From Azolla caroliniana (lineage: Eukaryota > Plantae > Polypodiophyta): DNA of 64,000 nucleotides. The position numbers and the translations under genes are program-made. Shown piece after piece: positions 5,747 through 63,241 of the stretch. The stretch covers positions 4,402,001 to 4,466,000 of the forward strand of contig JBHGNT010000003.1 of NCBI GenBank assembly GCA_043228905.1. Direction: 5' to 3'. The notes beneath the pieces are model-generated. The model made no database searches. It saw only the letters and a list, made by a program, of their open reading frames with translations, and was not told where the DNA came from. How positions within the stretch are numbered: position 1 is the stretch's first letter; the number at the start of each line of letters is the position of its first letter.

Positions 5747-7296
5747 AGTCAGTTTGAGCAAGGCGAGGGAAGTGGAACGTTTGTTCCTACTTGCTATATT
5801 TGCCGTCAAACTGGTCATTATGCTAATCAGTGCCCTGCTAAATGAAAAGGATCGGCGGTTAATATGGTTATATTGGAAGTACAACAAGTAACCACTAGAA
5901 GCAAAAGTAAACAATCTGAGTGGGAGATTTAGGAAGTAGTCCGGAAAGCAGCCAAGGAATGGATAGAGGAAGCAAATAAAAATAATGTAAACCGGATGCT
6001 CCAAGATAATGAAATTAACCAAGCTACTGAAGTACCAGGAGTGATTGTTGTACAAGAATAAGAGGAAGCTTGGAAGCTATTGGAAGATTGCCAAGTCTCA
6101 TTACCACTGACCGGATTACTTAAGTTGGTCCCTAGATTTACCGAAAAAGTGGCGACATTGATTGCCCAAAAGGGGTCAGAACGAGTATCGGTACACTATA
6201 GTCAGCCGAGCACCAACCCTTCAATCATGGATGAGCAAAATCCATCAATTAAAGTAATAATTCAGGTTCAGGAAATCGAAAATACGATTATCGATGGGGG
6301 CTCAGGAGTGAATGTCATTAATAAAACCACCTGTGATAGGTTGGGAATTACTAAATGGGAAGCTTGCCCATTTTGGCTCAGAATGGCGGATACCACTACG
6401 GTACGACCAATTGGTTTACTCCACCAATTAGAGGTGGTATTGGGTGGTCATAGTTTTCTAATATCGGCAGTAATACTTCATTTGGAAGCTCCTGGTGCAT
6501 ATCCTTTGTTATTAGGGTGATCGTTGTTAAAGACTGCTAGTTCATCAAGCAGAATTGGAATCAGAATCAACTAACATTCAGAAAAGGCAAAACGAAAATC
6601 CGGGTTTCAACACAGAACAAGGTTGCGACAAGTAAACAGTGTTTGCCTGTGTATGCTGAGTCCGTCAATATGATGGAAGGATTAGACGAGGTCAAAGAAA
6701 ATAGTATTTTGATGATAATCCAAAAATCATTCCTTTGTTCGAAGTAGATATTTTACAAGCCTTGACCCCATATGTGGATTTCTAGGAGGAATTGCCAATA
6801 GATGAGCAAGCAATGAAGGAAATACGACTCTAGCAAGAAGCTACCGATAGAGAGATGAAGGTGTCCCAACGAGTTCAAGCTTCAACATTGGAGGAAATAA
6901 ATTTGGCAGAAGAAGATGGGGACAATGAGTTGAAAACAGTACTTATTGCTAAGGATATGATAGAAGTAGAGAAACAAAGGTTAACAACATTATTAAAGCA
7001 ATATAAGGATGTCTTTGCCTGGTCTTTTGAAGATATGAAGGGACTAGATCCAGCTTTTTGTCAACATCAAATCAACTTGCATAAGGATGCAAAGCCAGTT
7101 CAACAATGCAGGTACCGATTAAATCCTAATTATGCTATTAAAGTTAAAGAAGAAATAGATAAACTTTTGAAAGTAGGGTTTATTCGTCCGGTGAAAAAAT
7201 CGACATGGTTAAGTCCAATCGTCGTAGTTCCGAAAAAGAATGGAAAAATTCGAGTATGTGTCGACTACCGGAAACTAAATGCAGCTACCATTACGG

Positions 7297-8150
7297 TGTC
7301 GTAGTGTAATTCGCACACTACGTGAAAAACACATTTTTTGTCTCTCCGGATGGGACATGAAGAGTACCCGGTGAGAACCGGATGAAGAAGGCCGGTGAGA
7401 GTCGGTGAGAAGAGGACCGGTAAGGAAGACCTGGTAAGAACCGGATAAAGAAAATTGGTGAGAACCGGATGAAGAGACATATTTGTAAATAGAAGAAAGT
7501 ATAAAAATATATATTACATGCATAGGGCAAGATTCTAACCTTGCACCTCCATGTTTATAATGTAAAGCCTTACCATTACACTAACATATCATTAGTGTTA
7601 AAAAGAGAAACGTCCCACATAGAAATAAGTTCACGCAAGGATAAACTTTAGTTAGAAGAAAACACATGATAAAAGAAAAAGCTACACATGCACATGTAGC
7701 GTGCATGAACACCATAGTCGATAAAAACGCATCAAGTTAGAAAAAGTAGGATCAATTTAGAAAAAGCATGTTAGAGAAAGCATAGAGTCTATCTATAGAA
7801 AAAGCATGGATTGTTAAGACTCTCTCATCACTATATAAGGATGAGGAGCACAATGTAATGGGGGGGGGGGGGGTGTGTGAAATATTTGGGAAATTGGATA
7901 TATTTCCTAAAACACCAATAAATAATCTATACTTGTGGGATTCACAAGTTCTTTTATCTCTTTCTTTCAATCTAAATACATATTCTTATCTAAATATTGA
8001 TTAATAAAATACATTATACTTGTGGGATTTCCAAGTTTCTAATAATCTATTTATAATTAGGATCGTCTCAAATTCTTCCTCCTCCTAGTCCAAAACCCCA
8101 GTGGTTCCCACCTGACTCACGCAAACGATCTGGGGCTGAAAGGCACGACA
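7297..8150 (+). repeat. 5' LTR of C (854 bp)
   Basis: Direct repeat of 10128-10979, roughly 97-98% identical by eye. Confidence 0.97.
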
Positions 8151-8155
8151 CAATT

Positions 8156-8173
8156 TGGTGAACCCGACGTGAA
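8156..8173 (+). promoter_or_regulatory. Primer binding site of C, complementary to the tRNA-Trp 3' end
   Basis: TGGTGAACCCGACGTGAA is complementary to the plant tRNA-Trp end ...TTCACGTCGGGTTCACCA (recalled sequence). Confidence 0.85.
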
Positions 8174-8188
8174 GGCAGGTGGCAAGGA

Positions 8189-9510
8189 GATGGAGAATCA
8201 ACAAGAGGCGATGAGCATAATGATGATGATGATTGAGCGAATGCAACAAGAACAACGCACGATGTCGGAGATGAAGGCGGCTGTTGAGCGGCTTGTGCAA
8301 CAAAATGGGGAATTCAACGGAAAGGCTGTATCACGCTATCTATGTGACTATAAGGCGGAGATGATGCGATGTGAGATACCGGAAGGATTGCAAGTGATAT
8401 CCTTTGATCGGGTGGCCTCGGACAAGCTGCAAGAGAGCATATACGAGATACGACAACAGAACACAACGTGGGTGTCCTTTGAGAAAGCTCTATTAGAGAA
8501 GTATGACTACGAGAGATCGATAGGACGAGATCGATGTGAGTTTGACCAGTGGGTGGGATCGACAAAGACTCACTGAAGTGCAACACAAGCATTCCTAGAG
8601 TTCGAGCATCGTTTTGCTCGACTCTCGGCGTGGGAACAAAGATTTTTGGGGGAGGATAAAGTCCAAATGTTCGTAAGATCGATTGATCAAAAAGAAAGGA
8701 TGGACATCGGGATCCAACTTGAAGATGATGACGGTGCAAATGGCCTTACCGAGGATTGGGTTGAAGTCGAAAGAGTATGCCAAAGATATGATAAGAGGAA
8801 AAGAGTATGCCAAAGATATGATAAGAGGAAGACGAGAATATTGTTGGCAACAAAATGGCCTACAAGGGATGATCGATGTGGTTGATACGAAGGTTGAAGT
8901 ACGATTCGACGGTACCACGGGAGAGGGTGTGGAACAAGGTATCCTCTTGTCTTGCGAAAGAACAATGACCAAGGATAAGGTCGATGACTTGAGAGTGGCG
9001 AATGCTACTTCAAGAACGGAAGAAGGTTTCGGAATACAAGTATCTGAAACATCGGGTGAAAAAGGGTTAAGCATAATCGATGCTTGCATGATCGAGGGAG
9101 ATAAAGAGTGTGAGGCGGACTTGATTGAGGAGGTTGCCATGAAAGATGACATCGAATCGGAGGTGGCTATGGACGAATCAATGGCGAATGGCTATATGAA
9201 GACTTTCCCACCACTAGTTCGAGAGACTTCGGTAGTTGCGTTCGAAAGACAACTTGAGACCGAAGAGATGGAAGGTGGCGGAGAGAAAACAAAGTTTGAA
9301 TCCGATCCATACGACGGAGAGATAGCCAAGAAGGTGGCTATGGGTGAAACAACGGAGAACGATAATACCGAGGATTCCTGCCCACTAATCCTAGAGACTT
9401 CGGCGGTTGTGTCCGAGAAGCAACATAAGACCGGAGAGATGAGAGATGATGGAGAGGAAGGTAAAGTCGAAAGCCGATTCGGATGGAAGATGATCTGTCC
9501 GAAATTTTGA
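8189..9510 (+). pseudogene. Element C gag-like region followed by an acidic low-complexity extension
   Basis: VERLVQQNGEFNGKAVSRYL...TWVSFEKALLEKY aligns with G gag VDRTVETVGRFGGKNITNFL...TWAEFERALLTEY. ORF 8683-9510 is E/D-rich with internal duplications. Confidence 0.75.
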
Positions 9511-10127
9511 TCTAAACGAAAGTCGAACCTGTCGAATCTGGTGAACACGAAGAAAAGAAAGTCAACCCAGACCGAAACCAATGGGTCAAACCTGAACTGG
9601 AAGGGGGCCGACTCAATCGAAACCAATCAACCGAGTCTGATTCAGCCGAATACGAATCCGATCAGAAGCTGATCCAGCTGAAAACCGATCAGACAAGACC
9701 GATCCGGAAAGAAGGTAATCCGACTCAACTGGAGGTCGAAGCAATCAAGACCGGTGAAAACGAGGAAGACGCCAAACAGGCACACTATCATGGCCATGCT
9801 AAGAGTGAACGAAGAATATGGTGGATCGGATGGCGACAATGGTTCGGGCGGAAAGAATGGATATGCTCAAAATGGAGAGACAAAATCGACATAGCGAGCG
9901 AAATGAAGGGATTGCGAATAAAGGAGAAATACGAGAGCCGGAAACCGGTAACCGGGCGGAGCAAGCAACTGAAATCCGGAAACTGAACGGAGCCGGAAAC
10001 CGAGCGAAGCCGACAACCAAGCACGACCGGCGACGAAACCAACCGGGCAGAGACCGGACGGGGAAGACTAACAATCACCGACGGCTTCGGCACATACCGG
10101 AGGATGTGCGGGTTCAGAGGGGGCGAG

Positions 10128-10979
10128 TGTCGTAGTGTAATTCGCACACTACGTGAAAAACACATTTTTTGTCTCTCCGGATGGGACATGAAGAGTACTC
10201 GGTGAGAACCAGATGAAGAAGGTCGGTGAGAGTCGGTGAGAAGAGGACCGGTAAGGAAGACCCGGTAAGAACCGGATAAAGAAAACTGGTGAGAACCGGA
10301 TGAAGAGATATATTTGTAAATAGAAGAAAGTATAAAAATATATATTACATGCATAGGGCAAGATTCTAACCTTGCACCTCCATGTTTATAATGTAAAGCC
10401 TTACCATTACACTAACATATCATTAATGTTAAAAAGAGTAAACGTCCCACATAGAAAGGTAAGTTCACGCAAGGATAAACTTTAGTTAGAAGAAAACGCG
10501 TGATAAAAGAAAAAGCTACACATGCACATGTAGCGTGCATGAACACCATAGTCGATAAAAACGCATCAAGTTAGAAAAAGTAGGATCAATTTAGAAAAAG
10601 CATGTTAGAGAAAGCATAGAGTCTATCTATAGAAAAAGCATGGATTGTTAAGACTCTCTCATCACTATATAAGAATGAGGAGCACAATGTAATAGGGGGG
10701 GGTGTGAGAAATATTTGGGAAATTGGATATATTTCCTAAAACACCAATAAATAATCTATACTTGTGGGATTCACAAGTTCTTTTATCTCTTTCTTTCAAT
10801 CTAAATACATATTCTTATCTAAATATTGATTAATAAAATACATTATACTTGTGGGATTTCCAAGTTTCTAATAATCTATTTATAATTAGGATTGTCTCAA
10901 ATTCTTCCTCCTCCTAGTCCAAAACCCCAGTGGTTCCCACCCGACTCACGCAAACAATCTGGCGCCGAAAGGCACGACA
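10128..10979 (+). repeat. 3' LTR of C (852 bp)
   Basis: Preceded by PPT AGAGGGGGCGAG; repeat of the 5' LTR. Confidence 0.97.
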
Positions 10980-13789
10980 ACGGATGCGTTTCCATTACCA
11001 TTTACGGATGGTATATTGGATGCGGTAGCTGGCCATGAAGTATATAGTTTCCTAGATGGTTTTAGTGGTTATAATCAGGTTCGGATGAATCTAGAGGATC
11101 AAGAAAAGGCAACTTTTGTTACAGAATGGGGAGTGTTTGTAGCAGTAGTAATGATGTTTGGCTTGAAGACCGCTCCGACGACATTTGAAAGAGTGATATA
11201 GGAAATATTTGGGAATTACATTCTTGCCTTTATGCAAGTATTTTTGGATGATTTTGCTGTTTATAATCGGAAAACCGAACATTTTGAGTAGTTATGACTA
11301 TGCTTGGAGAAATGTCGGGAAGGACGGCTTAGTTTAAATCCGGCAAAATGTGCAGTCGAGGTCATTAGTGGCACATTATTAGGCCATATCGTCAGTCAGG
11401 AAGGAATTGCAGTGGACTTTGACAAGGTTAAGGCCATACTGGAAGCACCGGCACCCACAAATGCTAAAGCTCTGAGTCGGTTTTTGGGATAGATTAGATG
11501 GCACAGCCGAATGATAAGATATCTTGCGGATATCGCCATTCCCTTTCATACAGCAGTACACAAAGTTCCTTTTCAGTGGACAAGCGTGGAATAGGATGCA
11601 TTTGATTGTTTGAAGAAAATGTTGTCCAAAGTTCCAGTTGTTCAACCACCTAACTGGAATAAGCCATTCCATGTTTTTGTTGACGCATCGGACATTGCAA
11701 TCGGAAGTGCATTAATGCAGTTAACCGAACTGAATTGGTACATGCTATTTTACTATGCTAGTCGGAAACTCTCGACAGTAGAAAGAAATTACTCTACCAC
11801 TGAGAGGGAAGCTTTAGGAATGATATATAGTGTCAATAAATTTCAACACTATCTTTTGGGGAAAAAGTTTACATTTCATGTTGATCATTTGGCTCTTCTT
11901 TATTTGGTCTCGAAACAAGAGTTAACTGGCAAGTTAGTAAGATGGACTCTTCTACTCCAAGAATTCGAATTTGACATTTTACATCGGCCAGGAGTACAGG
12001 ATGTAGTGGCCGATTATCTCAGTCGATTGGAGTTAGGAGAAGAAGGCACAGGTGTCAAGGATGATTTTCCGGATGGTCAGCTTTTTCGAGTGGAAGCAAT
12101 AAATGCACAGGGTGTAAATGAAGAAAGTGAGGATGGTTGGATTTCAGAAATGACAATCTTTCTTACAACAGGGTTACCACCCAAACATCTATCGATAGAC
12201 GAAAGGAAAAGGTTGGCAGTACGGAGTCGTAATTTTTGTCTTTTAAACGACACTTTGTATCATAAAGGAGCAGATGGTATTTGGAGAAGAATAGTACGAC
12301 AATTCGAAAAATTGGTCATTCTTCGGGAATCGCATTATGGAATTGCAGGAGGACACTATGCTGTAGAAACCACAACAAGAAAAGTATGGAACAGTGGCTT
12401 ATGGTGGCCGACAATGATGAAGGATGCAGTCGAATATTGTCGGAAATGTGATTTATGCCAACGTATGGGACAAGCAACGGAAAGGGACCGAATGCCATTT
12501 CAACCTGTGTTACCTCTTGAACCTTTCTAGAAATGGGATTTGGATTTTGTAGGCCCATTCAAACTGGTAGCAATAAGAATAGGCAATAGATATATTATAG
12601 TGGCTACTGACTACTGTACGAAGTGGGTAGAAGCTAAAGCTCTTAGGGATAATACAATAGCTTCAACAACAAAATTTTTGTACAAAAGTATATGGTGTCG
12701 ATTCGGCTGCCCAATAAAATTAATGAGTGATCAAGGTACGCATTTCATTAACAAACTTGTTCATGAATTGTCTACCTACTATGTAGTGGTTCATAAGAAA
12801 AGCATGCCTTACTATCCACAAGCGAATGGATTGGCAGAGTCGACAAACATAACCCTACATACGATACTCAAGAAGATAGTAAATGAGAATCGTATGGACT
12901 GGGATCAAAGGTTGCATAGTGCTTTATGGGCATATCGCACGTCGTACAAAACATCTATTAAGTCAACACCTTTCCGAATGGCTTTTGGATTGGAGGCAGT
13001 TATGCCAATCGAATTCCAGATTCCGACTTTCCGAATATAAGCAACCGAAAAATTAAATGAACTTTAGTCGGAGCAAATTCGGAAAGAATCTTTATTGCTG
13101 TTAGAAGAGGACCGAATACAAGCTATGACAGCTTTGGAGCACAAGCAAAGACAAACGAAGGCATTTGTAAATCGACACCGACCAAAAACCGAATCTCAAT
13201 TCGGAATCGGGAAACCAGTACTAGTTTTCCAGACCAAGATGGGGGCGATGCTAGGAAAACTTCGGTATAGATGGATGTGACCAGTTTGGATCGTGAACAG
13301 TAAAAATGGTACGTATCAACTGGGAGCCCTATCAAGTGAGATTTTACTGAAATGGGTAAATGGTTTCCGGCTTAAACCATATCATGGACACATGCTGGAA
13401 AACCCATTCAAGGCCGAATAGCAAGAAAAGTAAAAAAAAAAAAAAAAAACTAACTATAGAATATTTTCTTGCCAAATCATAACTAACTATCACGAAGAGA
13501 TTCTTAGAGTAATTTCAAAAGGCTATAAGTAAAAGTAGTGGAGGTATATTACTATTAGTCATTATTACTATTTCTAGCCATCACTCCACTAGTACGCCTA
13601 GTCATTACAACATTAATAGTACTTTTATTCCCTAGGCATCAAGCAAAAAATTAATCTCTTAAAACCTATTTCTGTAATGACTGTTTCACCACAGAAGTAG
13701 AAACGCATTCGAGCTCACAGGTTTTCTGATTTTAGTCGCCATAGCCCACAACGTTTCTCACAGCCATTACTGAGTGACGATCTGTCAAT

Positions 13790-26911: not shown

Positions 26912-27554
26912 TGTTGGGAGACAGGTCCCTCCGGATGGGAAGGGAGAAGAACAGCCGGATGGTGCAGACCCGGTGTGAACCGGATGAGGAGTACCCGGCT
27001 ACGGAGAGCCGGATGGTGCAGACCCGGTGTGAACCGGATGAGGAGTACCCGGCTACGGAGAGCCGGATGACGCAGACCCGGTGAGAACCGGAGGAAGAGA
27101 CATATTCGTAAATATGTTTCTAAGAGCCCATCATGGCTATATTTGTAAATAGCCGAAAAGTAATATTAGTATAAATATGACTTAGGGCAAATATGTGTAG
27201 CGAGTTGTTGTCATTTTCTTGTTGTGGCAAGAAGAAGAGAGAACATGTAATAGTGTACAGAGAGAGAGAGAGAAAGAAAGAGGTCGCTGCCTCTGTTGTA
27301 ACCACCGCCTGTGGCGAAGATCGTGAGTACGAGGTCGTTGCCTCCGTGAACTCACTGTTTTGTACATTCCAACATAGTGATAGTTTGCGGCCTGTGGGCT
27401 ACTGTGGTTTTTTCCCTCTTTGGGTTTTCCACGTAAACATTCTGTGTACCTTTTCTCTCCTTTGTGTCGCGTACATTTGTTCCTGTTTTTTGTGTATCAT
27501 TCTAAGCTCGGTTGTGGCCGAGCGTAGCGCATAAGGAGCGTTGAGTTCCCGTCA
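26912..27554 (+). repeat. 5' LTR of E2 (643 bp; two full 54-bp U3 repeats plus a partial one)
   Basis: TGTTGG...CCGTCA; repeat units start at 26953, 27007 and 27061. Confidence 0.96.
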
Positions 27555-33663: not shown

Positions 33664-33673
33664 AGGGGGAGTT

Positions 33674-39937: not shown

Positions 39938-40000
<63 letters not shown>

Positions 40001-40093: not shown

Positions 40094-40157
<64 letters not shown>

Positions 40158-40724
40158 ACACACACACACACACAAAATTATATTAAGAGGAATAACACTC
40201 TGTACATACTTCATGCTCAGTGAGCACTTTTTATACAAGGCCTGACGAGTGGGCTGACACAAATACCGTTGGTACTTGAATGCTCATAAACGAGCCTAAC
40301 ACTAATTCTGCGTACAATATTCCTATTTACTATACTAGGAATATAGTTTATTAACGACCTACCCGAGTTCCTAACCACACAACTCTCGGTTCTTGGTCCT
40401 ACGGCCGATTTGGGTCTCCCCGATCGGTCTTCAACCGATTTGGTTCTCAGCTTCTTTAGCCGCTCGACCCGAGTTGAGCTTGCTCGCTCAACACTCCCCC
40501 TCAAGCTCAACTTGAGGTCTCGTTGCGTCTGCTTCAGCTGGTTCGTCACTCTAGTGTCCTTTCCTAGTGCTCCTACACATCGCTCACGCTTCTCGTCCAA
40601 TCCGATTTTGCGTAGCACGACTGTTTCAGTCCGACGCTCCTCGACTCGTCTAGTTCCGTGCACTTCGACCTCTATGGTCGGCTTGTCTGCTTCCTTGGCC
40701 CTTCTCAGCTTCTTCGCTGCTACC
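39840..40724 (-). mobile_element. 3' end of a Copia-like element: internal remnant, PPT and LTR with a duplicated 156-bp (AG)n-containing unit
   Basis: Minus strand reads TTGAGGGGGAG|TGTTGAG at 40504-40487. Duplicated units start at 39845 and 40001. Confidence 0.65.
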
Positions 40725-44094: not shown

Positions 44095-44103
44095 TCCGGA
44101 CGG

Positions 44104-44300
44104 TGTCGCGTTGTTACGCGCGTGCATGGGAAACGAGGCGAGACCACCGGGGTCTCGGACCGAGAAATAGCTGAGGAGGAGAGCAGAAAGGCAACGGACG
44201 CACTTGCACACGCACAGACACGGGAGCACACAGGAATCACAGTCCAGCAACACAACAAAACGAGACGACTAGAAGCCGAGTATATGAACACATATGTATA

Positions 44301-44342
<42 letters not shown>

Positions 44343-44812
44343 GACGGTTACAACTAATAGGTCGGCAAGGCGAACACCGACGCCTGTTCACTCACACACA
44401 TGGAAGAGAGAGATGGAGACTCTGCCGGAAGCACACGGGCGTTCCACGGAGCAGAGTCGGCCTCCCGAAAACCTGTGCAAAAATGGTTATGGAGAGTGGC
44501 AGAGGAGAAGGGCTCGGTCCCAGTCCGGCAGCACTTCCCTCTCTCTAACGCACGATCCCTTTTTCATTCCTCTCCCTCTCTTTTATAGCCCAAGGAGGGA
44601 GGCCGTTATCATCCGTTACATCACATTAATTCTCTATCCTTTCGAACAGAGATACACCTCGATCCTCTCCCTATTGAATGCGTGCTACCTAGGATTTCAC
44701 CTCAGCCGACTTGATCCTACTTACTTACCATACAACAAAAAGTGTGCTTGCGTGTAAGGGCCGGTTTACACACGCTAAACTCGGTTTCCGCCTAGGGACA
44801 GTTTTCTTCACA
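44104..44812 (-). mobile_element. Solo LTR (709 bp) of the C/G lineage inserted in F
   Basis: TG...CA termini and 4-bp TSD ACGG (44100-44103, 44813-44816). Removal restores SIRTVLSIAAS. Contains (AT)n and the shared terminal GACCACCGGGGTCTCGGACC motif. Confidence 0.9.
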
Positions 44813-45660
44813 ACGGTATTGAGCATAGCGGCAAGCATGGACCTCGAGGTAGAGCAACTGGACGTCAAGACGACATTCCTACATGGCGACCCCAAAGAAG
44901 AGATCTACATGCATCAACCGGAAGGATTTGAGAAGAAAGGGAAGGAGCACTTGGTGTGCCGGCTGAAGAAGAGCTGATACGGATTGAAGCAAGCCCCCTG
45001 GAAATGGTACTGGAAGTTTGACTCCTTCATGACCGACCAAGGGTACCACAAGACACAAGCCGATCACTGTGTGTTTGTGAAGAAATTTGACGGAGGAGAT
45101 TTCTGGATACTCCTCTTATATGTGGATGATATGTTGATCGTCGGACGAGACCAAGGTAAGATTCAAATGCTAAAGAAGGTTCTGAACCGAACCTTCTCAA
45201 TGAAAGACTTGGGTTCGGCAAGACAGATATTGGGAATGCACATCATCCGGGACCGGTTGAAGAAGTTGTTATGGTTGTCACAAGAGAAGTACGTGACAAA
45301 GGTGCTTCAATGGTTCAACATGTCGGAGGTGAAACTGGTCGAATCGACACTTCCGGCAAACTGCAAGCTATCTGGAAAACAAAGCCCGAGGACAAAGGTA
45401 GAGAAGATGGATATGATGAAGATACCATATGCCTTTGCCATTGGGACCTTGATGTACGCAATGGTATGTACCCGGCCAGATATCGGATATGCAGTCGGAG
45501 TGGTAAGCCGGTTCATGAGCAATCCCGGAAGAGAGCACTGGAACGCGGTCAAGTGGATACTCGGGTATCTGATAGGCACCTCGAGTATGTGCCTCCGGTT
45601 CAGCTCCGGTAATCCCCAACTTGACGGAATCACGGATTCGGATATATCGGATATATACCA

Positions 45661-52258: not shown

Positions 52259-53732
52259 CCCCTTTGGTGAAGTGTCTTCCGGAGACACCCTGTGTTAGGC
52301 CATTGTCTGGCCCTAAGAAATAACATAGTTTTTGGTGACCACGATTCCTGCACAATCGCAGCAAACAATGACGGGAATGGATGACGAGACCAACGAACGA
52401 CCCGGTTACGGAGCGAGCAAGGAGACTTGTTGAATGGCTAAGGAAGCGAGAGGCTTTCCAGCAAGTGGCAGAAGAAATCAGAGTGGATCGCTCATTTTCC
52501 AAGGTGATCCGAAGAGTGGCCAAGGAATCACTTCGGTTACCACAAAACGCTTACCCGGACGAAGGAAGCAGCCTAAGCAGCCTCCGAGAAGCGGAATCCC
52601 TTCTCCAGGCATTGGCAGCGGGGGAAGGTGAATCCGAAGCATTTTCGGCATTTGAATCGGGTTCGGACGGGGAATACAACACGTAGACAAACTACCGCAG
52701 TAATAACGACACCCCAGGCAGACCAGAGGACGAGGAGTCGGATACCTTGCCGACACCAGAACCAGAAATCGAGGAGGAGAAGCCTCCGACACTGAAAGAG
52801 GAGCAGAAAAGATCTCCGACAGCAATAGAAGACCGGGAAAAACCTCTGACACCACAAGAGGAGGAACGACCACCGACACCACCAGCCCGTGTACCGACAC
52901 CAGACGATGATATGTCGTTAAGATATCCCAGATACCAGGATGATCCAGACGCGGAAGCCCACGTCCATGCGTTTCAGCAGACCTGGGAGACGAACCATGT
53001 GTCCCAACGCTTAAATGCAACCGAAGAGGAACGCTAAAAAAGGACAGAGTTCGGCATGACCTTGGAGGGATCGGCCACCAGATGGCATCGAACACAGGAT
53101 CCCAGCACCATCCCGACGTTTGAAACATTAAAGAAAAAATTATTGCATTTCTTTCACAAGGAGATGGACCAGTGGGAAATGGTAGGCTTATTTTACAGTA
53201 TGCGGCACGAACCAATGGAGAACATTCAGCAGTTTGTCATCCGGTTCCAGCGGATCCACAGTCAGATTAGCTGAACACCACTTGAGGAAGAAACAAAGGC
53301 CATATTCTTAGCAGCACTCTGGGAACCCTTACGAACAGTGTGCACCGTCATCGATTTCCGAACCAGCAACATAGATCAAGTGATTGACCGAGTTCGGGGA
53401 ATGGAAAACTCGAGTTCATGGCTAACCATGGGCGCACTTCAACGTACACTACCGACAGAAGAGGACCTCCGTTTCATGCAAGTAGTTCAATGTACGATAT
53501 GCCTGAATGTCGGACATTCGGTGTTGGAATGCACCATGCGTTCCCAATGCTTGCCCTGCCACTCCAGAAGTCACACAATGGAACGGTGTGAGTATAACTT
53601 GTTAAATCAACAAGCACCACCGGTCCGGCAAATTGAACCACAAAGCAACCGGGAGGAAGAAGAAGAACGTTGGCGGCGAGAGGAGCGCTACCGACCGGCA
53701 CAAGATGTTTGGTATAGCGATCGAAGAGACGC

Positions 53733-55101
53733 TGTCGCGATAATACGACGAGGATACGTGAACTTTGAGGCAGGACCCCGGGGCCTCCGACCGGAAGATA
53801 TCAGATTCGTATGATTATATTAAACAATTAATGCAAAATGATAAAGATTCACAAATTTCATTAATAAAGGGAAAGAAAGATTACAATTAATCCCAAGATT
53901 GGGATTACAAAAATTTGCTAATGGAGACGACTAGAGTAATAGATTAGAAGAAATGAAATATGGATTTAATTAGAATATTAGGGTTTTTAGCTTCAATTCG
54001 AAAATTAGGGTTTTTGAGTTATATGGCTTTGATTAGGAAATTAGGGCTTATGACTTCTATAAGGAAATGTAGGGTTCTTGGCTTCGATAAGATAAGAGAG
54101 CTCCGAAGGAAAAGAAGAACAATATAATATGGAGAGAGCATATGAGTATAGAAAAAAAATGGAATTATATAAGGAGTTCCTCGTTGATCATATGCCTCCA
54201 CTTTTTGTTGCATGGCTTCTACATTTAGTTGCATAGCTTTTCTTTTCGTTGAATCTATTTTTAGTTGCATGGCTTTTTCTTTAGTTGCATGCGACCATCC
54301 ACTTGACCTTTACTTTAGTCTCTTTTTCCTTTCTTTAAATAGCCACATGATCCTTTTATCCGTTTGATTTGCGTCCAACCTTGTACGGTTGCCAGTTCCG
54401 CCCGATCGCCGAATCCCTCGCCGGCCGGTTCCGGTTACGGTTCTGGTTTGCTTGCCGGTTCTAGTTCCGGTTTTGCTTGCCGGCCGGTTCCGGTTTTGCT
54501 TGTCGGCCGGTTCCGGTTTTGCTTACCGGCCGGTTCCGGTTTGCTTACCGGTTGGTACCGGTTTTGCTTGCCGGTCGGTTTCCGGTTCCGGTTTGGCATA
54601 CCGGCCGGGTTCCGGATTTGCTTACCGGCCGGTTCCGGTTTGCATACCGGTTCCAGTTCTGGTTTTGCTTACCGGTCGGTTCCGGTTTTGCTTGCCGGCT
54701 GGTTTCCGGATTTGCTTACCAGACCCATTTTCCGGATTTGCTTACCAGCCGGTTTCCGGATTTGTTTACCAGCCGGTTTCCGGATTTAGGGAATCTTGCC
54801 ACCATCATCCATCAAGACAAAGTGGCCAAAGTGCTCTTAGAACAAATGAAAAATGAGGGAGCTCAAGGTGCTTATATAGCCAGGGCCTTAAGTTTCCTAT
54901 CTATGTAGGATAGTTCTAATTTTTCTATCTTCCCAAACTTTATTTTCACATAACTTGATATGTATTTCTCCATTTTGTATATAGTAAAATACATTTTGAA
55001 GCTCTTGAGTACATCCATCTTTCTATAGTAAGCTACTAATCTAATCTATAATAATTATTTCATTTTTTTTTTTTACATAGTGTGTGAAGATTCACATGAC
55101 A
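53733..55101 (-). repeat. 3' LTR of G (1369 bp)
   Basis: Direct repeat of 60849-62295; CCGG-rich minisatellite at ~54390-54790. Confidence 0.96.
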
Positions 55102-55168: not shown

Positions 55169-58100
55169 CTATACTTTTTCATCGATGCTTAAGACTGAAT
55201 CGTCAAAAGCTTCGAATCCAATTTCTAGTCTATCTCTTCTCTTGAAGATCTTGATTCTTTTACCGGCAATTGGCAAGGCAAGTGGTGTACCATCCAGTTC
55301 TACTAAATGATATGTTGCATTATCTTCCACTTTCTTCACCACATATGCCCCAAACCATCGTTGTGAGAATTTTCGAGCCGTACTATGTTGGTTATCTAGG
55401 CTGCTGTCATAGACTAGCACCCAATCTCCTTCAACGATTTTCCTTGGCCGAAGTCGATGTCGTTTATCGAAGTCTTTCTTGTTCTTTAGCCTTGCATTCT
55501 TTAGCCGCGCTTTAGCCACCTCTATATCTTCCAAATTCCGCTCTAATTGTCGAATCCTCAATGCTAGAAGATCTTCTCTAGTTATCTCATCTTGCCATGG
55601 CAATGCAAACCATGAAATAATACTTTGTTCTACAGGCATTATTGGCTTTTGTCCGAATATGAGCTCTGCCGGCATGTATCCCGTCACCGTGCTATGAGTA
55701 GTCCTGTCAGCCCATAGTGCAAATGGCAATAGACGCGGCCATTCTCCTATTTTCCCATGGCAAGCTTTCACTAGAGCCTTCACAATCGGTCCATGTCCAC
55801 GTTCCACCTTCCCATTTGCTTCCGGATTATACGCCATGGTAAGAGATAATTTGATTCCCATCCTCGAGAAGAATTCTCTAGCTTCATTGGCGTCCAACTC
55901 GCCTCTATCAGCCACTATCTTGCCGACACATCCATATCTGCAAATAACATCTTCAAGAAGGAATCGGCATACCGATGATGTCTCCTTAGTTCTTAATGCT
56001 CGCCCTTCAACTTGATTGGTAAGATCCTCTCTCGCGAGCACAAGATACTTCATCTGCCATCGTCCCATTGGCATCATCACTATGTCCACCATCCACTTGT
56101 AATGCATAGCCAATGGGTAAGTCGGATGAAGTCCATCTCGATGGCAAATATTCGAAAACATTTGACATTCCTTACATGTTTCCACATAAGCTGCTACATC
56201 TTTGTAGATGCCCGGCCACCAATATTTCTCCTTAAGCTTCACAAACATAGCCCATATTCCTCGATGGCCTGCAAAAACACTATCATGAAATTTGGACATT
56301 AGTTTTTGTTGGTCTTCTAGCTTGCAGACAACTCTCATCGGAGTCCCATTCTTCTTTTTTGCATGCCTCCAAAGAGCTCCATCCTTAAGGAAATACTTGT
56401 ATGCCTTCTTCCGAATTCGATGGAAGCCTTCCGTCGACCATGATTCATCTTTTTGGAGAGAACTCAAGTATTTCCCGATCTCCACGAATTCGCCTTCGTA
56501 GTCCTCTTCTATGTAAGTAGTCAACACCCGAGCATAGGAACTTGCAAAGAAATCCAAGCCAACATCATCTTCATCAGAATGTCGATCTTCTTCTCCGTCG
56601 TATCTCGCTCGTGATAGCATGTCTGCAACGACATTACGCTTCCCAGCTACATGACAGATCTCCGGGTTGAGTGATTTGATATATGCAATCCAACGCAACA
56701 TGGCAATATCCGGTGTATTACAACCAGATATCATACCCAAAATTGGTAGGCAATCTGTCTCAATTATGACTTCTGCTCCAATAAGGTAATCACAATCAGA
56801 TTTGATTGCCGAGACGATCCCCCATAGCTCCCTCTTCACTTGGGCATACCTTCTTTGCCTGTCACTTAACACTTTCGCGCCAAACCGAATTGCATATCGG
56901 TTGCAATCTTCATCTTCTTGGTTGATAACCCATCCAATTCCGATTGGACTAGTATCCACAGTCACGAAAATGGGTTTGCCGTATGAATAGTCCGCTTTCC
57001 GTAATGCAGGTGCCTCCATCAATAATTTCTTCAGCCTTCGGATGGCGATTGTATGCTCGCTCGTCCATTCGAACATCCGCTTCTTCTTTAGTAGACCATA
57101 TAATGGCTCAGCAATGTGGGCATAGTGTGGAATCCAAATATGATAAAACGTGCATGCTCCGAGGAACCTTCGAACCTCCGTTTGGGTTACACATTCTTCT
57201 TTCATGTCTTGGATTGCATTCACCTTGGATGGCGAAGGCTTCCGACCGTATGCTCCACACAAGTGACCTACCACTAGGATCTCTGGTTGCCTGAATGCGG
57301 ATTTTTCTCCCGAAAATGTCAAATTCGCATCTTCGAGCCTTTGGAGCACTTTCTCGCAATCTTTCATATGATCCATGACGAACTTTCTACATCCATCCTT
57401 ATCTTTTGATTCATCCTTCTCTTCATCCGAACATCCTTTTATCGGAATATCATCTAAGAATGGCATCGTGATATCCGGGATGCAATCCTTGAAGACCTTG
57501 TTCGTGGCATTCACCATATGAGCCACCGAGTTCGTTGCACCTTGAGGTAAGGTACACATCCGCACCAACCCGATTGGATTTCTCATGGTTGTAATGTCAC
57601 GACTGTCGACCACCAACTGGAATTGATCGTAGCCAGAGTAGAGATCGTCGATGGAGTAGATGGACCGGCCCGCAAACGCCTCGGCAAATTCATCCACACT
57701 CGGACCAATTCCAGCATTCCGAATTGTTACCTTGTTGACGGGTTGAAGATCTTGAATGAATCGCAAGGATCCATTCTTCTTTGGCACCGTGAACCACCTA
57801 TTAGAATAAGGAGCATTCGGTGGTTCTAGAATTCCCATCCTCACCTTCCTCTTTAAGAGCTCGATCAACTTCGGTAGGTGTGCTCTCGGAACCGGTATCG
57901 GTTTCAAATTCCAAGGCACATGCGGCACCGTGAAGATCACCATCGGTTCTACCGTCCTTGGATTAGCACACCCGATTTCTTGTGGGAAAAACGCGAAAGC
58001 CTTCCCATGTCTTTCAAGCATTCCACGAAACATCCGCTCCTCTTCAAGGAGGAGGAAATCCTCCCTTCCAACTCGTAGCTTTCCCTTCGTCTCTTCAGTG

Positions 58101-58624
58101 AAGATGTGACCAATTGTATTTGGGTTCCTTAAGCTTGGATCTTTTGCAACTTCCTTCATCTTTTGCCAACTATCTTCCGGTAGCGGAACTGCAACTGGCT
58201 TGATCTTCCTATCCACGGTTTTATATTTTGTGTTGACTTCGGCTTCCTCTATCAAGATGCCTTGATGATATTCATCGATGATAGTATACATGTTGACGGA
58301 GTTAACCGAAATCACATGTTGATGGTGAGGATAGCTCAAATCCACGACTTCCTCGATTTCACCGATGGTGTTGTTAAATGAGGCTTCCTCCAGAATATAT
58401 GACACGAATTCTTCTTCTTCGATTATGCTTTCTACTTTCAGCACCTCCTCGAAGTCTTGTATCTGACACTTTTCCTTCTTGTTGAGTAGTCTAAGTTTGC
58501 ATGCGCCGCCAGGTGTGACGCATGTTGCTTCTCCTTGCAATCCATGCACTTTGCTTCCTTGTGGGGACTTATGATTGCTCGGACTATTTGTGCCCCATGC
58601 TTCAATAGTCCGCTTTAAAAATCC
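55169..58624 (-). CDS. pol: G pol (RT, RNase H, integrase); open frame starting at the putative frameshift site
   Basis: 1126-aa ORF with FIQDLQPVN, FLDD, TVDTS, HHCC zinc finger, ADRGE and NGKVE motifs. The frame stays open upstream to 58624. Confidence 0.92.
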   Translation of the reverse strand, partial: GFLKRTIEAWGTNSPSNHKSPQGSKVHGLQGEATCVTPGGACKLRLLNKKEKCQIQDFEEVLKVESIIEEEEFVSYILEEASFNNTIGEIEEVVDLSYPHHQHVISVNSVNMYTIIDEYHQGILIEEAEVNTKYKTVDRKIKPVAVPLPEDSWQKMKEVAKDPSLRNPNTIGHIFTEETKGKLRVGREDFLLLEEERMFRGMLERHGKAFAFFPQEIGCANPRTVEPMVIFTVPHVPWNLKPIPVPRAHLPKLIELLKRKVRMGILEPPNAPYSNRWFTVPKKNGSLRFIQDLQPVNKVTIRNAGIGPSVDEFAEAFAGRSIYSIDDLYSGYDQFQLVVDSRDITTMRNPIGLVRMCTLPQGATNSVAHMVNATNKVFKDCIPDITMPFLDDIPIKGCSDEEKDESKDKDGCRKFVMDHMKDCEKVLQRLEDANLTFSGEKSAFRQPEILVVGHLCGAYGRKPSPSKVNAIQDMKEECVTQTEVRRFLGACTFYHIWIPHYAHIAEPLYGLLKKKRMFEWTSEHTIAIRRLKKLLMEAPALRKADYSYGKPIFVTVDTSPIGIGWVINQEDEDCNRYAIRFGAKVLSDRQRRYAQVKRELWGIVSAIKSDCDYLIGAEVIIETDCLPILGMISGCNTPDIAMLRWIAYIKSLNPEICHVAGKRNVVADMLSRARYDGEEDRHSDEDDVGLDFFASSYARVLTTYIEEDYEGEFVEIGKYLSSLQKDESWSTEGFHRIRKKAYKYFLKDGALWRHAKKKNGTPMRVVCKLEDQQKLMSKFHDSVFAGHRGIWAMFVKLKEKYWWPGIYKDVAAYVETCKECQMFSNICHRDGLHPTYPLAMHYKWMVDIVMMPMGRWQMKYLVLAREDLTNQVEGRALRTKETSSVCRFLLEDVICRYGCVGKIVADRGELDANEAREFFSRMGIKLSLTMAYNPEANGKVERGHGPIVKALVKACHGKIGEWPRLLPFALWADRTTHSTVTGYMPAELIFGQKPIMPVEQSIISWFALPWQDEITREDLLALRIRQLERNLEDIEVAKARLKNARLKNKKDFDKRHRLRPRKIVEGDWVLVYDSSLDNQHSTARKFSQRWFGAYVVKKVEDNATYHLVELDGTPLALPIAGKRIKIFKRRDRLEIGFEAFDDSVLSIDEKV
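58562..58624 (-). promoter_or_regulatory. Putative programmed -1 ribosomal frameshift signal (slippery heptamer plus pseudoknot)
   Basis: G GAT TTT TAA, 5-nt spacer, 9-bp stem CGGACTATT/AATAGTCCG, loop TGGGG complementary to downstream CCCCA. Pol is in the -1 frame. Confidence 0.8.
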
Positions 58625-60795
58625 AAGGATTCGCCTCCAAGGCTATCTCGGTTCCTTTTATGATTAGCTCGCACCGTCAGGAATTGAACGGATCTTTTAC
58701 TATCAAGACTCTTGACGTGCGCGAAGGCTGCTCCATTATCGAACACCTTGGTCTCCATCTAGGACGATGTTATATATGGTTGTCCTAGGATGACAGGATG
58801 TGAAGCCGAGTCTTGCACGAAGAAGTGTTGATCAATCTCTACATCCCCGATTGTGACTTTAACATTGGGACAACCTCCGTACAAGTCCTCTGTAGCCTTC
58901 GTCGCCACTCGAATCTTCCATCCGTGGTTTGTATTAATCGGCCATCTTCCTTTCTTGTAGAACTCGGTCGACATGAGGTTGATCTCTGAGCCATGGTCAA
59001 TCAAAGCGACCACAGTCTCTTTCTTCTCCCCGATCTTCACCGGTGTCTCCGTTGTCGCTCTTGCCCAATGAGGCCGCGAGTAATGGCTATCCGCCACCAC
59101 TTCTTCTTCTTCCTCCTCTTCTGATCTTGCCATGGTTATGGCACTTGTTTTCACCTCCTCTTCATCAGATTGTTGCCGCTTACTTTTAATAAGGTCCACG
59201 ATAGTATCATGGAACTCCTTCTTCGCGATCCCAAGTAGCTCTCTCAAGGTAAGGTCGACATGACTATCTAAAACCTTCTCCTCAAGAACCTTCCGCAAGT
59301 TAGTTGTTTGTTCTATGTCCGACCTTACCTTGTAAGTCGGTGCCGCTCGTTCTTTTCCTTTCTTCGTTGATTCTTCGACTTCCATTCGAGTAGGTTGGCT
59401 CGATCCACCGGGCTTCATGTTTGTTTCACCAATCTCTTTTCTTGGGATAGGTTGGGGTGGCCCTTCTTTCCCTCTGTTCCTCATGTTAGGTCGCTTTGAT
59501 GTGCCATCTTCTTCACCGGTTCTCTTCCTCTTCTCTTGGACAAGGGCTTCATAGGTGTCACACACAACCTCCGCAAAGCTTGTGTTTTCGTCGATTGGAT
59601 CTGACCATCCGGTTGCTCGTCGCACGTTTCGGTCAGCAAGTTTTAGATCCTCCGAATTGATTTTGCCTTTTTCTTCGCACTCAAAGACCGTTGGCCAAAA
59701 CCCAGCTCTTGGCTTCATCATTTTAAGATTCTCTTTTCCAACTCGTATCCCAGCCGAAGCGGCATAGTGCATAGCCTCCACATGCCTTGCATCTTCTTCT
59801 TCTACAATCTTTTTCAGCCCACCTCTTCCGAAGTTCACTCGTAGTGGCTTCCGGGTCTCGCTCGAGTGAATCATGTTGTCGTCCAAATAGACAACATTCT
59901 TGCGGATCGCATCTTGCAAGTCAGCACATTCCCTTCGTGAGTGTTCAAAGCTATCGCACCACACACATCTATACGCTTTTTTTCCCTTGGGCCCGCGTCG
60001 ACCTAAGTTGGCTAGCGATACCGCTTCAAACTTCTTGGAGAGCTCTTCGATTATAGACTCCTCCATTGCTTTCTTGTCGAAATTGTTGATCGGCTTACTA
60101 GGCTCAATCGTCGTAGGTGCCTTCTTCCACAATTGTGGATTCTCGACCTCAGCTTCCTCTTGCCATTGTCGCCGCTTATCAAAACGGTTGCAAGCCTTCT
60201 TCACTGCCACCTAGTCCGCTACCAAGCCATTTGGTTGTGTTTCGTCCTCCAAGAAACTGCCCAATTCTCGCCGATCTTTCGCATCCATTGCCTTTAGGAA
60301 TAGTAAGACTTTATCTCCGTCGAGAACTCGTTGCTCGACACTCGGAAGTCGGTTGTACTTATGGTCAAATTTGGCATAAATTCCCGATGCACACATATTC
60401 TTCCCTTTCTTCTCAATCCAATTCATTAACGTATGCCGAGTCATTCGCGATGCGTCTTCAAGCATGTATTCAGTGAGAAGAGCCCTTTCGAACTCCGCCC
60501 AAGTTGCATGCTCGTTCTGGATCTCCATCACGCGCTCACGGATCCCAGGTTCTACCACACGCTTAAAGCTTGAAATTTGTTTTGGATCATGTACATCTCT
60601 TTGTTGCATCTCGTTCCGGTAGGTAGCAAGGAAATTTGTGATGTTCTTCCCACCGAATCTTCCAACTGTCTCCACAGTTCGGTCAACAGCTTTGTCGACT
60701 AAAGCCTCCCGATCTCTCTCTTTCAGCATGAATTCGACGATGGACACCATCCCTTTGGTCAATTCTTGTCCTTGAGTTCCACTTGTTGAAGCCAT
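58615..60795 (-). pseudogene. gag: G gag-protease ORF (single frame, two in-frame TAG)
   Basis: ORFs 60211-60831 and 58759-60210 share a frame that continues to TAA at 58615. Knuckle CVWCDSFEHSRREC; protease ALIDHGSE...ILGQP. Confidence 0.85.
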
Positions 60796-60826
60796 CTTCG
60801 TACTTGATATCCTCCTACTGCCTCGT

Positions 60827-60844
60827 TTCACGTCGGGTTCACCA
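60827..60844 (-). promoter_or_regulatory. tRNA-Trp PBS of G
   Basis: TGGTGAACCCGACGTGAA, identical to the C PBS. Confidence 0.87.
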
Positions 60845-60848
60845 AAGA

Positions 60849-62295
60849 TGTCGCGATAATACGACGAGGATACGTGAACTTTGAGGCAGGACCCCGGGGC
60901 CTCCGACCGGAAGATATCAGATTCGTATGATTATATTAAGCAATTAATGCAAAATGATAAAGATTCACAAATTTCATTAATAAAGGGAAAGAAAGATTAC
61001 AATTAATCCCAAGATTGGGATTACAAAAATTTGCTAATGGAGATGACTAGAGTAATAGATTAGAAGAAATGAAATATGGATTTAATTAGAATATTAGGGT
61101 TTTTAGCTTCAATTCGAAAATTAGGGTTTTTTGAGTTATATGGCTTTGATTAGGAAATTAGGGTTTATGACTTCCGTAAGGAAACTTAGGGTTCTTGGCT
61201 TCGATAAGATAAGAGAGCTCCGAAGAAAAAGAAGAACAATATAATATGGAGAGAGCATATGAGTATAGAAAAAAACTGGAATTATATATGGAGTTCCTCG
61301 TTGATCATATGCCTCCACTTTTTGTTGCATGACTTCTACTTTTAGTTGCATAGCTTTTCTTTTTGTTGAATCTATTTTTAGTTGCATGGCTTTTTCTTTA
61401 GTTGCATGCGACCGTCCACTTGACCTTTACTTTAGTCTCTTTTTCCTTTCTTTAAATAGCCACATGATCCTTTTATCCGTTCGATTTGCGTCCAACCTTG
61501 TACGGTCGCCAGTTCCGACCGATCGCCGAATCCCTCGCCGGCCGGTTCCATTTTGCTTGTCGGCTGGTTCCGGTTACGGTTCCGGTTTGCTTGCCGGTTC
61601 CAGTTCCGGTTTTGCTTGCCGGCCGGTTCCGGTTTTGCTTGTCGGTCAATCCGGTTTGCTTGCCAGTTTCGGTTCCGGTTTTGCTTACCGGCCGGTTCCG
61701 GTTCTGGTTTTGCTTACCGGTCGGTACCGGTTTTGCTTGCTGGTCGGTTTTCGGTTCCGATTTTGCATACCGGCCGGTTTCTGGATTTGCTTACCGGCCG
61801 ATTCCAGTTTGCATACCGGTTCCGGTTCCGGTTTTGCTTGCCGGTCGGTTCTGGTTTTGCTTGCGGGTTCCGGTTCCAGTTTTTCTTGCCAGTTCCGGTT
61901 CCAATTTTGCATACCGACTGGTTTCCGAATTTGCTTACCGACCGGTTTCCAGATTTGTTTCCCGGCCGCTTTCCGGATTTAGGGAATTTGGCCACCATCA
62001 TCCATCAAGACAAAGTGGCCAAAGTGCTCTTAGAACAAATGAAAAATGAGGGAGCTCAAGTTGCTTATATAGCCAGGGCCTTAAGTTTCCTATCTATGTG
62101 GGATAGTTCTAATTTTTCTATCTTCCCAAACTTTATTTTCACATAACTTGATATGTATTTCTCCATTTTGTATATAGTAAAATACATTTTGAAGCTCTTG
62201 AGTACATCCATCTTTCTATAGTAAGCTACTAATCTAATCTATAATAATTATTTCATTATTATTTTTTTACATAGTGTGTGAAGATTCACACGACA
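60849..62295 (-). repeat. 5' LTR of G (1447 bp)
   Basis: TGTCG...CGACA termini; longer CCGG minisatellite at ~61505-61985. Confidence 0.96.
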
Positions 62296-63241
62296 ACGCT
62301 TATAATGACCGATATGATAGACAGGATAGATACCGGGACTATAATGGACAGTATGAAAGATATAACCGGGATCATTCCCCTGGTTACAACTACCGACGGG
62401 ACGACTATGACAAGGATGCCGCAACAAAAAGAATTTTAGTAAGAAATGTCATTTCAACAAAAAGGGGGGTCATCCACGAGAACCGGAAAAGGGCGGTCCG
62501 AGTAGCTAACCAGACCAAAACCAAGCACTTACCCCTGGTCCTCCACTAAGCACACACTCCGAATCCAACAACGCCCAGAAGTCGTACTGCTATCATTGCC
62601 GGCAAGAAGGCCACTATAGTAATCAATGTCCAGCGAAGAGCTACGACAAGCGACCAACGGTGAACATGGTAGACGCGGAAGTCGCAGACATACAAGTCAC
62701 TACAAGATCAAAAGGCAAAGCCACGGAGTGGGAAACTCAAGAAGTCATCCGGAAGCAGGCAACCGAATGGGTGAAGAAGACAAATTCAAGAAACCCATTT
62801 GAACAAGTAAAGGGCGACACAGAACCGGACATCGGTAAATCGGAAGAGACGGCCACACGTTCAACAATCAACAAGCGCGAAGCCGGTAAGAGGGAGCACG
62901 AGCCGGCAAACGACAACAACGATGCAACGGCAAGCAGTTCAGTGGCCGGAAAGGACCACAATCCGGATAGGGGTCTAGTGGGACCGGATGCGAATTAACA
63001 AAATCATTGTTAATCTTAAAATAAATATAAAACGAATCAAATCAAATCAAATCAAAGTAAATCATGCAAGGGCGAGGGGTGAACGGACACATGCAAGAAC
63101 AAGGAGTGAACAGGCACTTTGTAAAGGTACGTAGTGGGCTATTAATAGGGTATTAAACCGCCGCCACATGGCACAACATTCTATTTTAGTACACGACGTG
63201 CACATGCGCGGGTAAGAAAAAAATAAAAAACAGGCGCCAAC

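What the first reader, a model, noticed from the sequence alone, without database searches (positions are those of the whole stretch)
7293..62299. Gypsy lineage that inserts at CpG with 4-bp target duplications (4 of 4 insertions)
Seen: four independent insertions with related LTR ends sit at ACGN on the plus strand. C has TSD ACGG (7293/10980), the solo LTR has ACGG (44100/44813), G has ACGC (53729/62296), and the fragment at 39577 has left flank ACGT (only one flank survives). For the three two-sided cases, removing the insert plus one 4-mer restores the host reading frame, so the TSD is 4 bp. Copia E2 in the same window has a normal 5-bp TSD. In element orientation the targets are ACGG, CCGT, GCGT and ACGT, so the CG is always central. 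Known: most plant LTR elements make 5-bp TSDs with weak preference, while CG-centred 4-bp targeting is known for Drosophila ZAM/Tirant. Inference: G's integrase has no recognisable chromodomain and may read CpG (possibly methylated CpG) directly, steering insertions into CG-rich TE nests.
Basis: partly seen in the sequence, partly recalled or inferred. Interest (0 to 1): 0.8.

Follow-up and report, generated by a model that had tools for sequence, protein, structure and literature searches.

The report
Phygy-type plant retrotransposons target CG sites
Four families of one plant jumping-gene lineage almost always insert at a CG pair and copy four bases of the target, a habit already published for the moss lineage Phygy, to which they very likely belong; their own integrase likely picks the site, and whether methylation matters is untested.

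Summary
All four junctions are as described, and uninterrupted paralogues in the window carry one copy of the 4-mer. For the G family, 221 of 272 LTR ends are followed by NCGN (internal junctions included). Of 98 listed host flanks, 88 are NCGN and the other 10 read TG, CA or TA, which are CG deamination products. Among 34 two-ended copies, 22 have an exact 4-bp duplication and none an exact 5-bp one. A Copia control has 5-bp duplications and CG in 0 of 38 flanks. Neumann et al. 2019 list Phygy as 4 bp, NCGN, 7.7-10 kb, tRNA-Trp primer, no extra domain; G (8,563 bp) meets all five. The tree test against Phygy references could not be run. The idea that the habit steers copies into CG-rich nests is not supported: flanks are no CG-richer or more repetitive than Copia's. 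ZAM/Tirant use CGCG, a different register. Additions: the site is VCGB, edge bases differ between families, and relatives occur in Riccia and Ceratopteris. This scan noted NCGN targeting before in a probable fungus.

The parts
7293..7296 (+). Left TSD of element C (ACGG)
   Evidence: paralogous empty site with one ACGG near 2393-2396, minus strand
7297..8150 (+). 5' LTR of C, a 3,683-bp non-autonomous element; LTR pair 2.0% divergent
8156..8173 (+). Primer-binding site of C, complementary to the 3' end of tRNA-Trp(CCA)
8174..10127 (+). Internal part of C: short decayed ORFs, no pol; its start resembles the internal start of the autonomous relatives
10128..10979 (+). 3' LTR of C, ends CGACA
10980..10983 (+). 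Right TSD of C (ACGG)
39573..39576 (+). Surviving target flank of the fragment (ACGT)
   Evidence: paralogous empty sites near 32866 and 45290
39577..40724 (-). LTR fragment of a fourth, older family, cut by a Copia LTR at about 40725; several relatives carry the tRNA-Trp PBS next to this end
44100..44103 (+). Left TSD of the solo LTR (ACGG)
   Evidence: paralogous empty site 32389-32392
44104..44812 (-). Solo LTR, 709 bp; longer relatives encode a pol 56-65% identical to G pol over the main segments
44813..44816 (+). Right TSD of the solo LTR (ACGG)
53729..53732 (+). TSD of G (ACGC)
53733..55101 (-). 3' LTR of G (1,369 bp); LTR pair 4.1% divergent in substitutions
55169..58642 (-). pol frame of G, 1,157 aa: RT, RNase H, integrase; no chromodomain and no extra RNase H found
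55172..56392 (-). Integrase of G: HHCC domain, D-D-E core, SH3-type C-terminal domain, short acidic tail
58759..60210 (-). gag-region ORF of G with DUF4100; a stop near 60211 separates it from the upstream part
60827..60844 (-). Primer-binding site of G, tRNA-Trp(CCA)
60849..62295 (-). 5' LTR of G (1,447 bp)
62296..62299 (+). TSD of G (ACGC)
26912..34368 (+). Control: Copia E2 with the 5-bp TSD CTTGG (not part of the lineage)

Best explanation
These four insertions belong to one chromodomain-less Ty3/gypsy lineage, very likely Phygy, that inserts at a CG pair with a 4-bp duplication, and the element's own integrase likely selects that CG by its sequence and bendability without needing a methyl mark. 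Shown: 4-bp stagger, central CG, avoidance of T at the first and A at the last position (VCGB), one clade, tRNA-Trp priming, no chromodomain. Inferred from retroviral intasomes: a 4-bp stagger needs a sharp kink at a central pyrimidine-purine step. Inferred here: base contacts from the core (the ADRGE segment after the second catalytic Asp, aligned with the PFV Ala188 region) and from the C-terminal loop (conserved QH and K) narrow that step to CG. After insertion the duplicated CGs are likely methylated with the element and decay to TG/CA, which would account for the exceptions.
For: G family: 221 of 272 ends NCGN. By hand count of the first 100 rows listed, 88 of 98 host flanks are NCGN and all 10 exceptions read TG, CA or TA (chance about 7e-8). 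C family: 51 of 62 host flanks NCGN, 10 TG/CA, 1 other (hand count, first 100 of 2,354 rows). Two-ended G copies: 22 of 34 exact 4-bp, 8 with one transition, 0 exact 5-bp. Copia control: CG at positions 2-3 in 0 of 38 flanks against 141 of 167. Five Phygy features met. One clade, support 97/98. Families in the same genome differ at the edge bases (CCGG 19 of 88 in G, 1 of 51 in C, p=0.0009), which points to an element-encoded determinant. Retroviruses with 4-bp TSDs favour a central YR step and disfavour T at 0 and A at +3 (PMC4422553 passages). Sequence-specific relatives exist: Ginger1 with CCGG/CCGT, and ZAM integrase, which binds its target in vitro (abstract). Flanks are no CG-richer or more repetitive than Copia flanks.
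Against: No Phygy reference sequence was available, so membership rests on features and not on a tree. No methylome or binding data were used. About 89% of flanks are repeats, which are probably methylated, so a methyl-dependent step is not excluded. The candidate contact residues come from alignment and a moderate model (pLDDT 71, TM about 0.34 to PFV over the whole chain), and the conserved Glu could be structural. One exact pair is GTGG/GTGG (L163). Part of the edge-base difference could come from CHG decay or from different target neighbourhoods.
Confidence: 0.7

Rival explanations
1. The integrase itself needs or strongly prefers 5-methyl-CG, using DNA methylation in place of a chromodomain to find silent chromatin.
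For: No chromodomain in G or 40 homologues. The CG centre is near-absolute, far stricter than the YR bias of retroviruses. 149 of 167 flanks are repeats. In P. patens, Phygy inserted into Tcn1 was the commonest repeated nested pair (PMC6911290 passage).
Against: Copia flanks are at least as repetitive (37 of 38) and equally CG-rich. 18 of 167 flanks had no repeat hit in my limited library. TG/CA exceptions show methylation after insertion, not before. The edge pattern is already explained by 4-bp intasome geometry. I found no paper passage showing lower methylation of TCG/CGA sites.
Confidence: 0.14
2. A host methyl-CG-binding protein tethers the intasome and positions it on the CG.
For: Tethering is common for retroelements (PMC5408687 passage). 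The integrase has a short variable acidic tail that could dock a partner.
Against: A protein bound on the CG would be expected to offset the insertion, not centre it symmetrically (inference). The tail is not conserved among 41 homologues. Edge bases differ by family.
Confidence: 0.06
3. The lineage is not Phygy but a separate non-chromovirus clade, close to fungal Ylt1-like elements, that shares the same features.
For: The nearest non-plant relatives are fungal gag-pol proteins at 38-39% RT-RH identity. No P. patens protein appeared among the listed hits.
Against: Exact match to the Phygy row in TSD length, motif, size range, primer and domain content. Selgy and TatI each fail features. Phygy and a fungal affinity do not exclude each other.
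Confidence: 0.08
4. The CG centre is an artefact of CG-rich surroundings, misplaced LTR ends or ascertainment.
For: CG is common here (4.7% of window positions), and the LTR ends themselves contain CG.
Against: 81% genome-wide against about 5% background, 0 of 38 in the Copia control, two-sided TSDs and empty paralogues.
Confidence: 0.01

Closest known systems
Phygy clade of plant non-chromovirus Ty3/gypsy (Neumann et al. 2019, PMC6317226; passages, section 9, Additional files 5 and 6 read)
   Same: 4-bp TSD with NCGN; size (G 8,563 bp, Phygy 7,656-9,968); tRNA-Trp PBS; no chromodomain or extra RNase H.
   Different: Described there as specific to P. patens. Here it is another plant genome with at least four families, a high-copy non-autonomous family (2,354 LTR-end matches), a refined VCGB motif and family-specific edge bases. 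The tree test was not possible.
Ginger1 DNA transposons (Bao et al. 2010, PMC2836005; passages)
   Same: Gypsy-like integrase with GPY/F motif, TGTNR ends, 4-bp TSD centred on CG (CCGG 75%, CCGT/ACGG 24%).
   Different: Cut-and-paste elements with TIRs and no RT, from animals; narrower motif.
Drosophila ZAM subgroup errantiviruses (PMC5408687 passages; PMC2527525 abstract)
   Same: Sequence-specific gypsy integrase with a CG-containing palindromic target.
   Different: The target is CGCG (central GC), the ends are AGT...AnT, and the elements have three ORFs. Tirant TSD length rests on 2 sites in PMC3276498 (passages).
Prototype foamy virus and other 4-bp-TSD retroviral intasomes (Serrao et al. 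2015, PMC4422553; passages)
   Same: 4-bp stagger, central YR step, T and A disfavoured at the edges; best fold matches of the model.
   Different: Their preference is weak; here the centre is almost always CG.
Selgy and TatI (PMC6317226 Additional file 5)
   Same: 4-bp TSD; TatI also uses tRNA-Trp.
   Different: Selgy is about 5 kb with tRNA-Ala; TatI always has an extra RNase H. No NCGN is listed for either.
Fungal Ylt1-like Ty3/gypsy (Novikova et al. 2010, PMC2864245; passages)
   Same: Chromodomain-less; fungal gag-pol proteins are the nearest non-plant relatives in my tree.
   Different: No named Ylt1 sequence was compared. The few fungal-type flanks seen were not NCGN.

Membership tests
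Phygy | 4-bp TSD | tested here: met
   22 of 34 two-ended G copies exact 4-bp, 0 exact 5-bp; C and solo families also show 4-bp pairs
Phygy | NCGN target | tested here: met
   221 of 272 ends; 141 of 167 flanks in three families
Phygy | tRNA-Trp primer-binding site | tested here: met
   The PBS of C and G matches the 3' end of genomic tRNA-Trp(CCA) genes (4 of 63 pattern hits scanned, 4 of 4 tRNA-Trp)
Phygy | Length 7,656-9,968 bp, coding region fills most of the internal part | tested here: met
   G is 8,563 bp; other long G copies 8,240-8,407 bp. Autonomous relatives of C are about 7.3 kb, slightly under the range
Phygy | No chromodomain, no additional RNase H, no extra ORF | tested here: met
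   Pfam scans of the G ORFs and of 41 integrases at E 0.1
Phygy | Clusters with the REXdb Phygy sequences in RT-RH-INT trees (the primary definition) | not testable with these tools
   The FASTA and the full table of PMC6317226 are too large to read; no named P. patens protein among the listed hits
Selgy | tRNA-Ala PBS, about 5 kb | tested here: not met
   tRNA-Trp and 8.6 kb
TatI | Additional archaeal-type RNase H | tested here: not met
   No such Pfam hit in the G ORFs
Chromovirus (Tcn1, Galadriel and others) | Chromodomain and chromovirus-type RT | tested here: not met
   No chromodomain; about 25% identity to the other gypsies of the window, long separating branch
Fungal Ylt1 clade | Groups with Ylt1/Tca3 in RT-INT trees | not tested
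   No named Ylt1 sequence was at hand; unnamed-clade fungal proteins are the nearest non-plant rows, support 80/65

The most novel reading that the evidence does not exclude
The Phygy-type integrase is a methyl-CG reader: it recognises 5mCG at the centre of its target, so DNA methylation itself replaces the chromodomain as the guide to silent chromatin, and edge residues tune the flanking bases family by family. That would be a retroelement integrase aimed directly by a DNA methylation mark, which my searches did not find described.
Probability: 0.14. Interest if true: 0.75.

Novelty: new member of a known kind. Interest (0 to 1): 0.22.

Why it matters
The phenomenon is published, as one sentence and one table cell among the papers I could search (only PMC6317226 showed the term NCGN), and I found no mechanism for it. 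This genome shows how strict the rule is, that it extends beyond P. patens, and that sister families differ at the edge bases. It is therefore a good natural system for asking how an integrase reads sequence. CG-centred TSDs also decay on a clock: exact-match TSD filters will miss older copies, and each insertion adds one methylatable CG. It would matter much more if methylation turned out to guide the choice.

Tried and rejected
(1) 5-bp TSD: 0 of 34. (2) Steering into CG-rich or repeat-rich DNA: no difference from Copia; both flanks of one insertion count as two, and the repeat library was only the fetched loci. (3) The idea that TCG/CGA avoidance mirrors lower methylation of these contexts: recalled as a lead, not found in passages of PMC6453930 or bioRxiv 2020.03.04.971267. 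(4) NCGN in fungal-type relatives: one metagenome scan gave 80 loci; only 3 gave readable host flanks (GTAC/CTAC, CTAT, ATAT). None is CG; two could be doubly decayed CG; inconclusive. (5) Ylt1 TSD sequence: not given in the passages of PMC5014426 or PMC2864245. (6) Placing G among named Phygy sequences: failed. (7) Linking Phygy to the RLG names of P. patens: not in the passages of PMC7466625. (8) Expression: no RNA holder listed; two RNA runs of another species laid 29 and 18 reads, mostly 90-95% alike; no evidence either way. (9) The fragment's missing right end was not found downstream; the gypsy at 46.2-51.9 kb is a different element. (10) A hand count of CCGG used was wrong (24) and was corrected to 19. 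(11) The host plant group was not determined.
Full report
1. The observation. C spans 7297-10979 between ACGG copies, the solo LTR 44104-44812 between ACGG copies, and G 53733-62295 between ACGC copies. The fragment begins at 39577 after ACGT and is cut by a Copia LTR at about 40725. Uninterrupted paralogues in the window carry a single 4-mer at the C, solo and fragment sites. This fixes the length at 4 and removes the 5-bp reading that the solo LTR alone would allow. Copia E2 (26912-34368) has the 5-bp TSD CTTGG. CG makes up 4.7% of window positions.

2. Genome-wide test. The window lies in G000, a 523-Mb assembly. A 15-base pattern for the G LTR end has 272 matches, and 221 of them are followed by NCGN; the 272 include internal junctions. 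I counted the first 100 listed rows by hand: 2 internal, 88 NCGN, and 10 others whose centre reads TG or CA (9) or TA (1), the products of cytosine deamination at CG. For C, the first 100 of 2,354 rows gave 38 internal, 51 NCGN, 10 TG/CA and 1 other (hand count). I fetched 10-kb stretches for 40 of the 272 G ends. Six had no far end. Of the other 34, 22 had an exact 4-bp TSD (21 by script plus L164 on re-reading; 21 NCGN and one GTGG), 8 differed by one transition, 2 by two changes, and 2 were not true pairs; none had an exact 5-bp TSD. Across three families, 141 of 167 host flanks had CG at positions 2-3 and 21 had TG/CA, against 0 of 38 Copia flanks (46 and 12 internal junctions dropped for G plus C and for the solo family, 15 for Copia). 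Two-ended Copia copies showed 8 exact and 4 one-mismatch 5-bp TSDs and 1 unclear case.

3. The motif. T at the first and A at the last position are rare: 5 and 8 of 139 NCGN flanks, against 33% and 32% of background CG sites. The site is therefore VCGB, with no strong signal beyond the 4 bases. Families differ: CCGG is 19 of 88 in G and 1 of 51 in C (p=0.0009), and C favours ACGT.

4. One lineage. G encodes RT, RNase H and integrase in one 1,157-aa frame, with a DUF4100 gag region. C is non-autonomous, but 7.3-kb relatives sharing its LTR end encode a pol 62-65% identical to G pol. Relatives of the solo LTR are 56-65% identical over their main segments, while the other gypsies of the window are about 25%. 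In an RT-RH tree of 29 rows, G, the C relatives and the solo family fall in one clade (97/98), next to Riccia sorocarpa proteins, then fungal gag-pol and Chara rows on long branches. Integrase relatives also occur in Ceratopteris at 57%. The fragment is tied in by LTR likeness and by the same primer site in several relatives. The primer site of C and G is complementary to genomic tRNA-Trp(CCA) genes. I did not determine the host group; an earlier AI note calls it likely a fern (unchecked).

5. What is known. Neumann et al. 2019 (PMC6317226; passages, section 9 and Additional files 5 and 6 read) state that Phygy elements have an insertion preference for NCGN. They tabulate Phygy as 186 elements, 4 bp (100%, NCGN), 8,628 bp (7,656-9,968), tRNA-Trp 81%, no extra domain. 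G meets each of these; Selgy and TatI fail on primer, size or the extra RNase H. Jedlicka et al. 2019 (PMC6911290, passages) confirm 4-bp TSDs for Phygy and GC-rich centres in 4-bp TSDs. Phygy is also annotated in the liverwort Apopellia (PMC12885004, passages). The defining tree test needs the paper's FASTA and full table, which could not be read and bear on the membership claim. The ZAM subgroup targets CGCG (PMC5408687 passages; PMC2527525 abstract), with a central GC. Ginger1 (PMC2836005 passages) is the better analogue. In a search for NCGN with retrotransposon and insertion preference, only PMC6317226 showed the term among 15 listed of 176; searches listed no mechanistic study.

6. Mechanism. 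Shown: the stagger, the motif and the absence of a chromodomain in G and 40 homologues. From the literature: 4-bp-TSD retroviruses kink the target at a central YR step, disfavour T at 0 and A at +3, and contact bases through PFV Ala188 and Arg329 (PMC4422553 passages). This accounts for the VCGB edges and a YR centre but not for CG alone. The G integrase keeps D103, D162 and E197. After the second Asp it has RGE, with the Glu in 37 of 41 rows, aligned with the PFV QGA segment; the C-terminal loop has Q335 in 40 of 40, H336 in 35 of 40 and K341 in 39 of 39. The model (pLDDT 71) matches PFV and Ty3 intasomes. I infer that these segments read the CG; this is untested. The difference between families in one genome favours an element-encoded determinant over a host tether.

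7. Methylation and steering. TG/CA exceptions and one-sided transitions indicate that the TSDs were likely methylated after insertion; they say nothing about the target before. Flanks of this lineage and of Copia have the same CG density (0.054 and 0.055 per base), CG observed/expected (0.94 and 0.92) and GC content. They also have a similar share of repeats (149 of 167 and 37 of 38, p=0.21) and of TE-protein hits (67 of 167 and 15 of 38). With a CG about every 20 bases, sequence alone cannot steer much. Methyl reading stays possible but has no positive evidence. My own look at fungal-type relatives gave three readable cases, none CG, so a cross-kingdom habit is open.

8. Verdict. A real, strict and genome-wide target rule, already published for Phygy; this is very likely a new set of Phygy families. 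Interest 0.22. The open and testable part is whether the integrase senses 5-methylcytosine (probability about 0.14, interest 0.75 if true).

Noticed in passing
window 10693-10970 (and the same part of the 5' LTR of C): Inside the C LTR a G-run is followed by TG, and about 245 bp later by CA and TGGCGCCGAA, like a small LTR remnant with a purine tract and a primer site. The last part is shared with the autonomous relatives.
   Followed up: partly
window 27221-30336: Copia E2 holds three near-identical 1,038-bp tandem copies (99.7-99.9%) spanning the LTR end and gag start; a recent duplication or an assembly artefact.
   Followed up: no
C family, genome-wide: The LTR-end pattern of C has 2,354 matches against 272 for G. 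Many LTR pairs lie about 2.8 kb apart (non-autonomous form), some about 6.5 kb apart with a pol.
   Followed up: partly
window 54425-54790 and 61534-61980: The G LTR carries a CCGG-rich tandem array of about 23-24-bp units, so the element brings many copies of its own preferred target.
   Followed up: no
L130, L159, L143: Some TSD mismatches fall on edge bases in CHG context, so CHG decay also erodes the TSDs and may create part of the rare TCGN class.
   Followed up: partly
G000:C8:17.80-17.82 Mb and C16:4.99-5.11 Mb: Clusters of tRNA-Trp 3'-end matches, on C8 at about 1.2-kb spacing; likely tandem tRNA gene arrays.
   Followed up: no
L240, L242, L246, L255, L257, L267, L276, L279, L282, L284: Related families on unnamed metagenome contigs (71-88% RT-RH identity to G) show NCGN next to LTR ends, and tRNA-Trp primer sites; they may come from the same or a near host.
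   Followed up: partly
P0374, P0379 (Chara braunii): RT relatives of this lineage at 37-40% occur in a charophyte alga; Neumann et al. found no non-chromoviruses in the algae they sampled. Long branches, placement unsure.
   Followed up: partly
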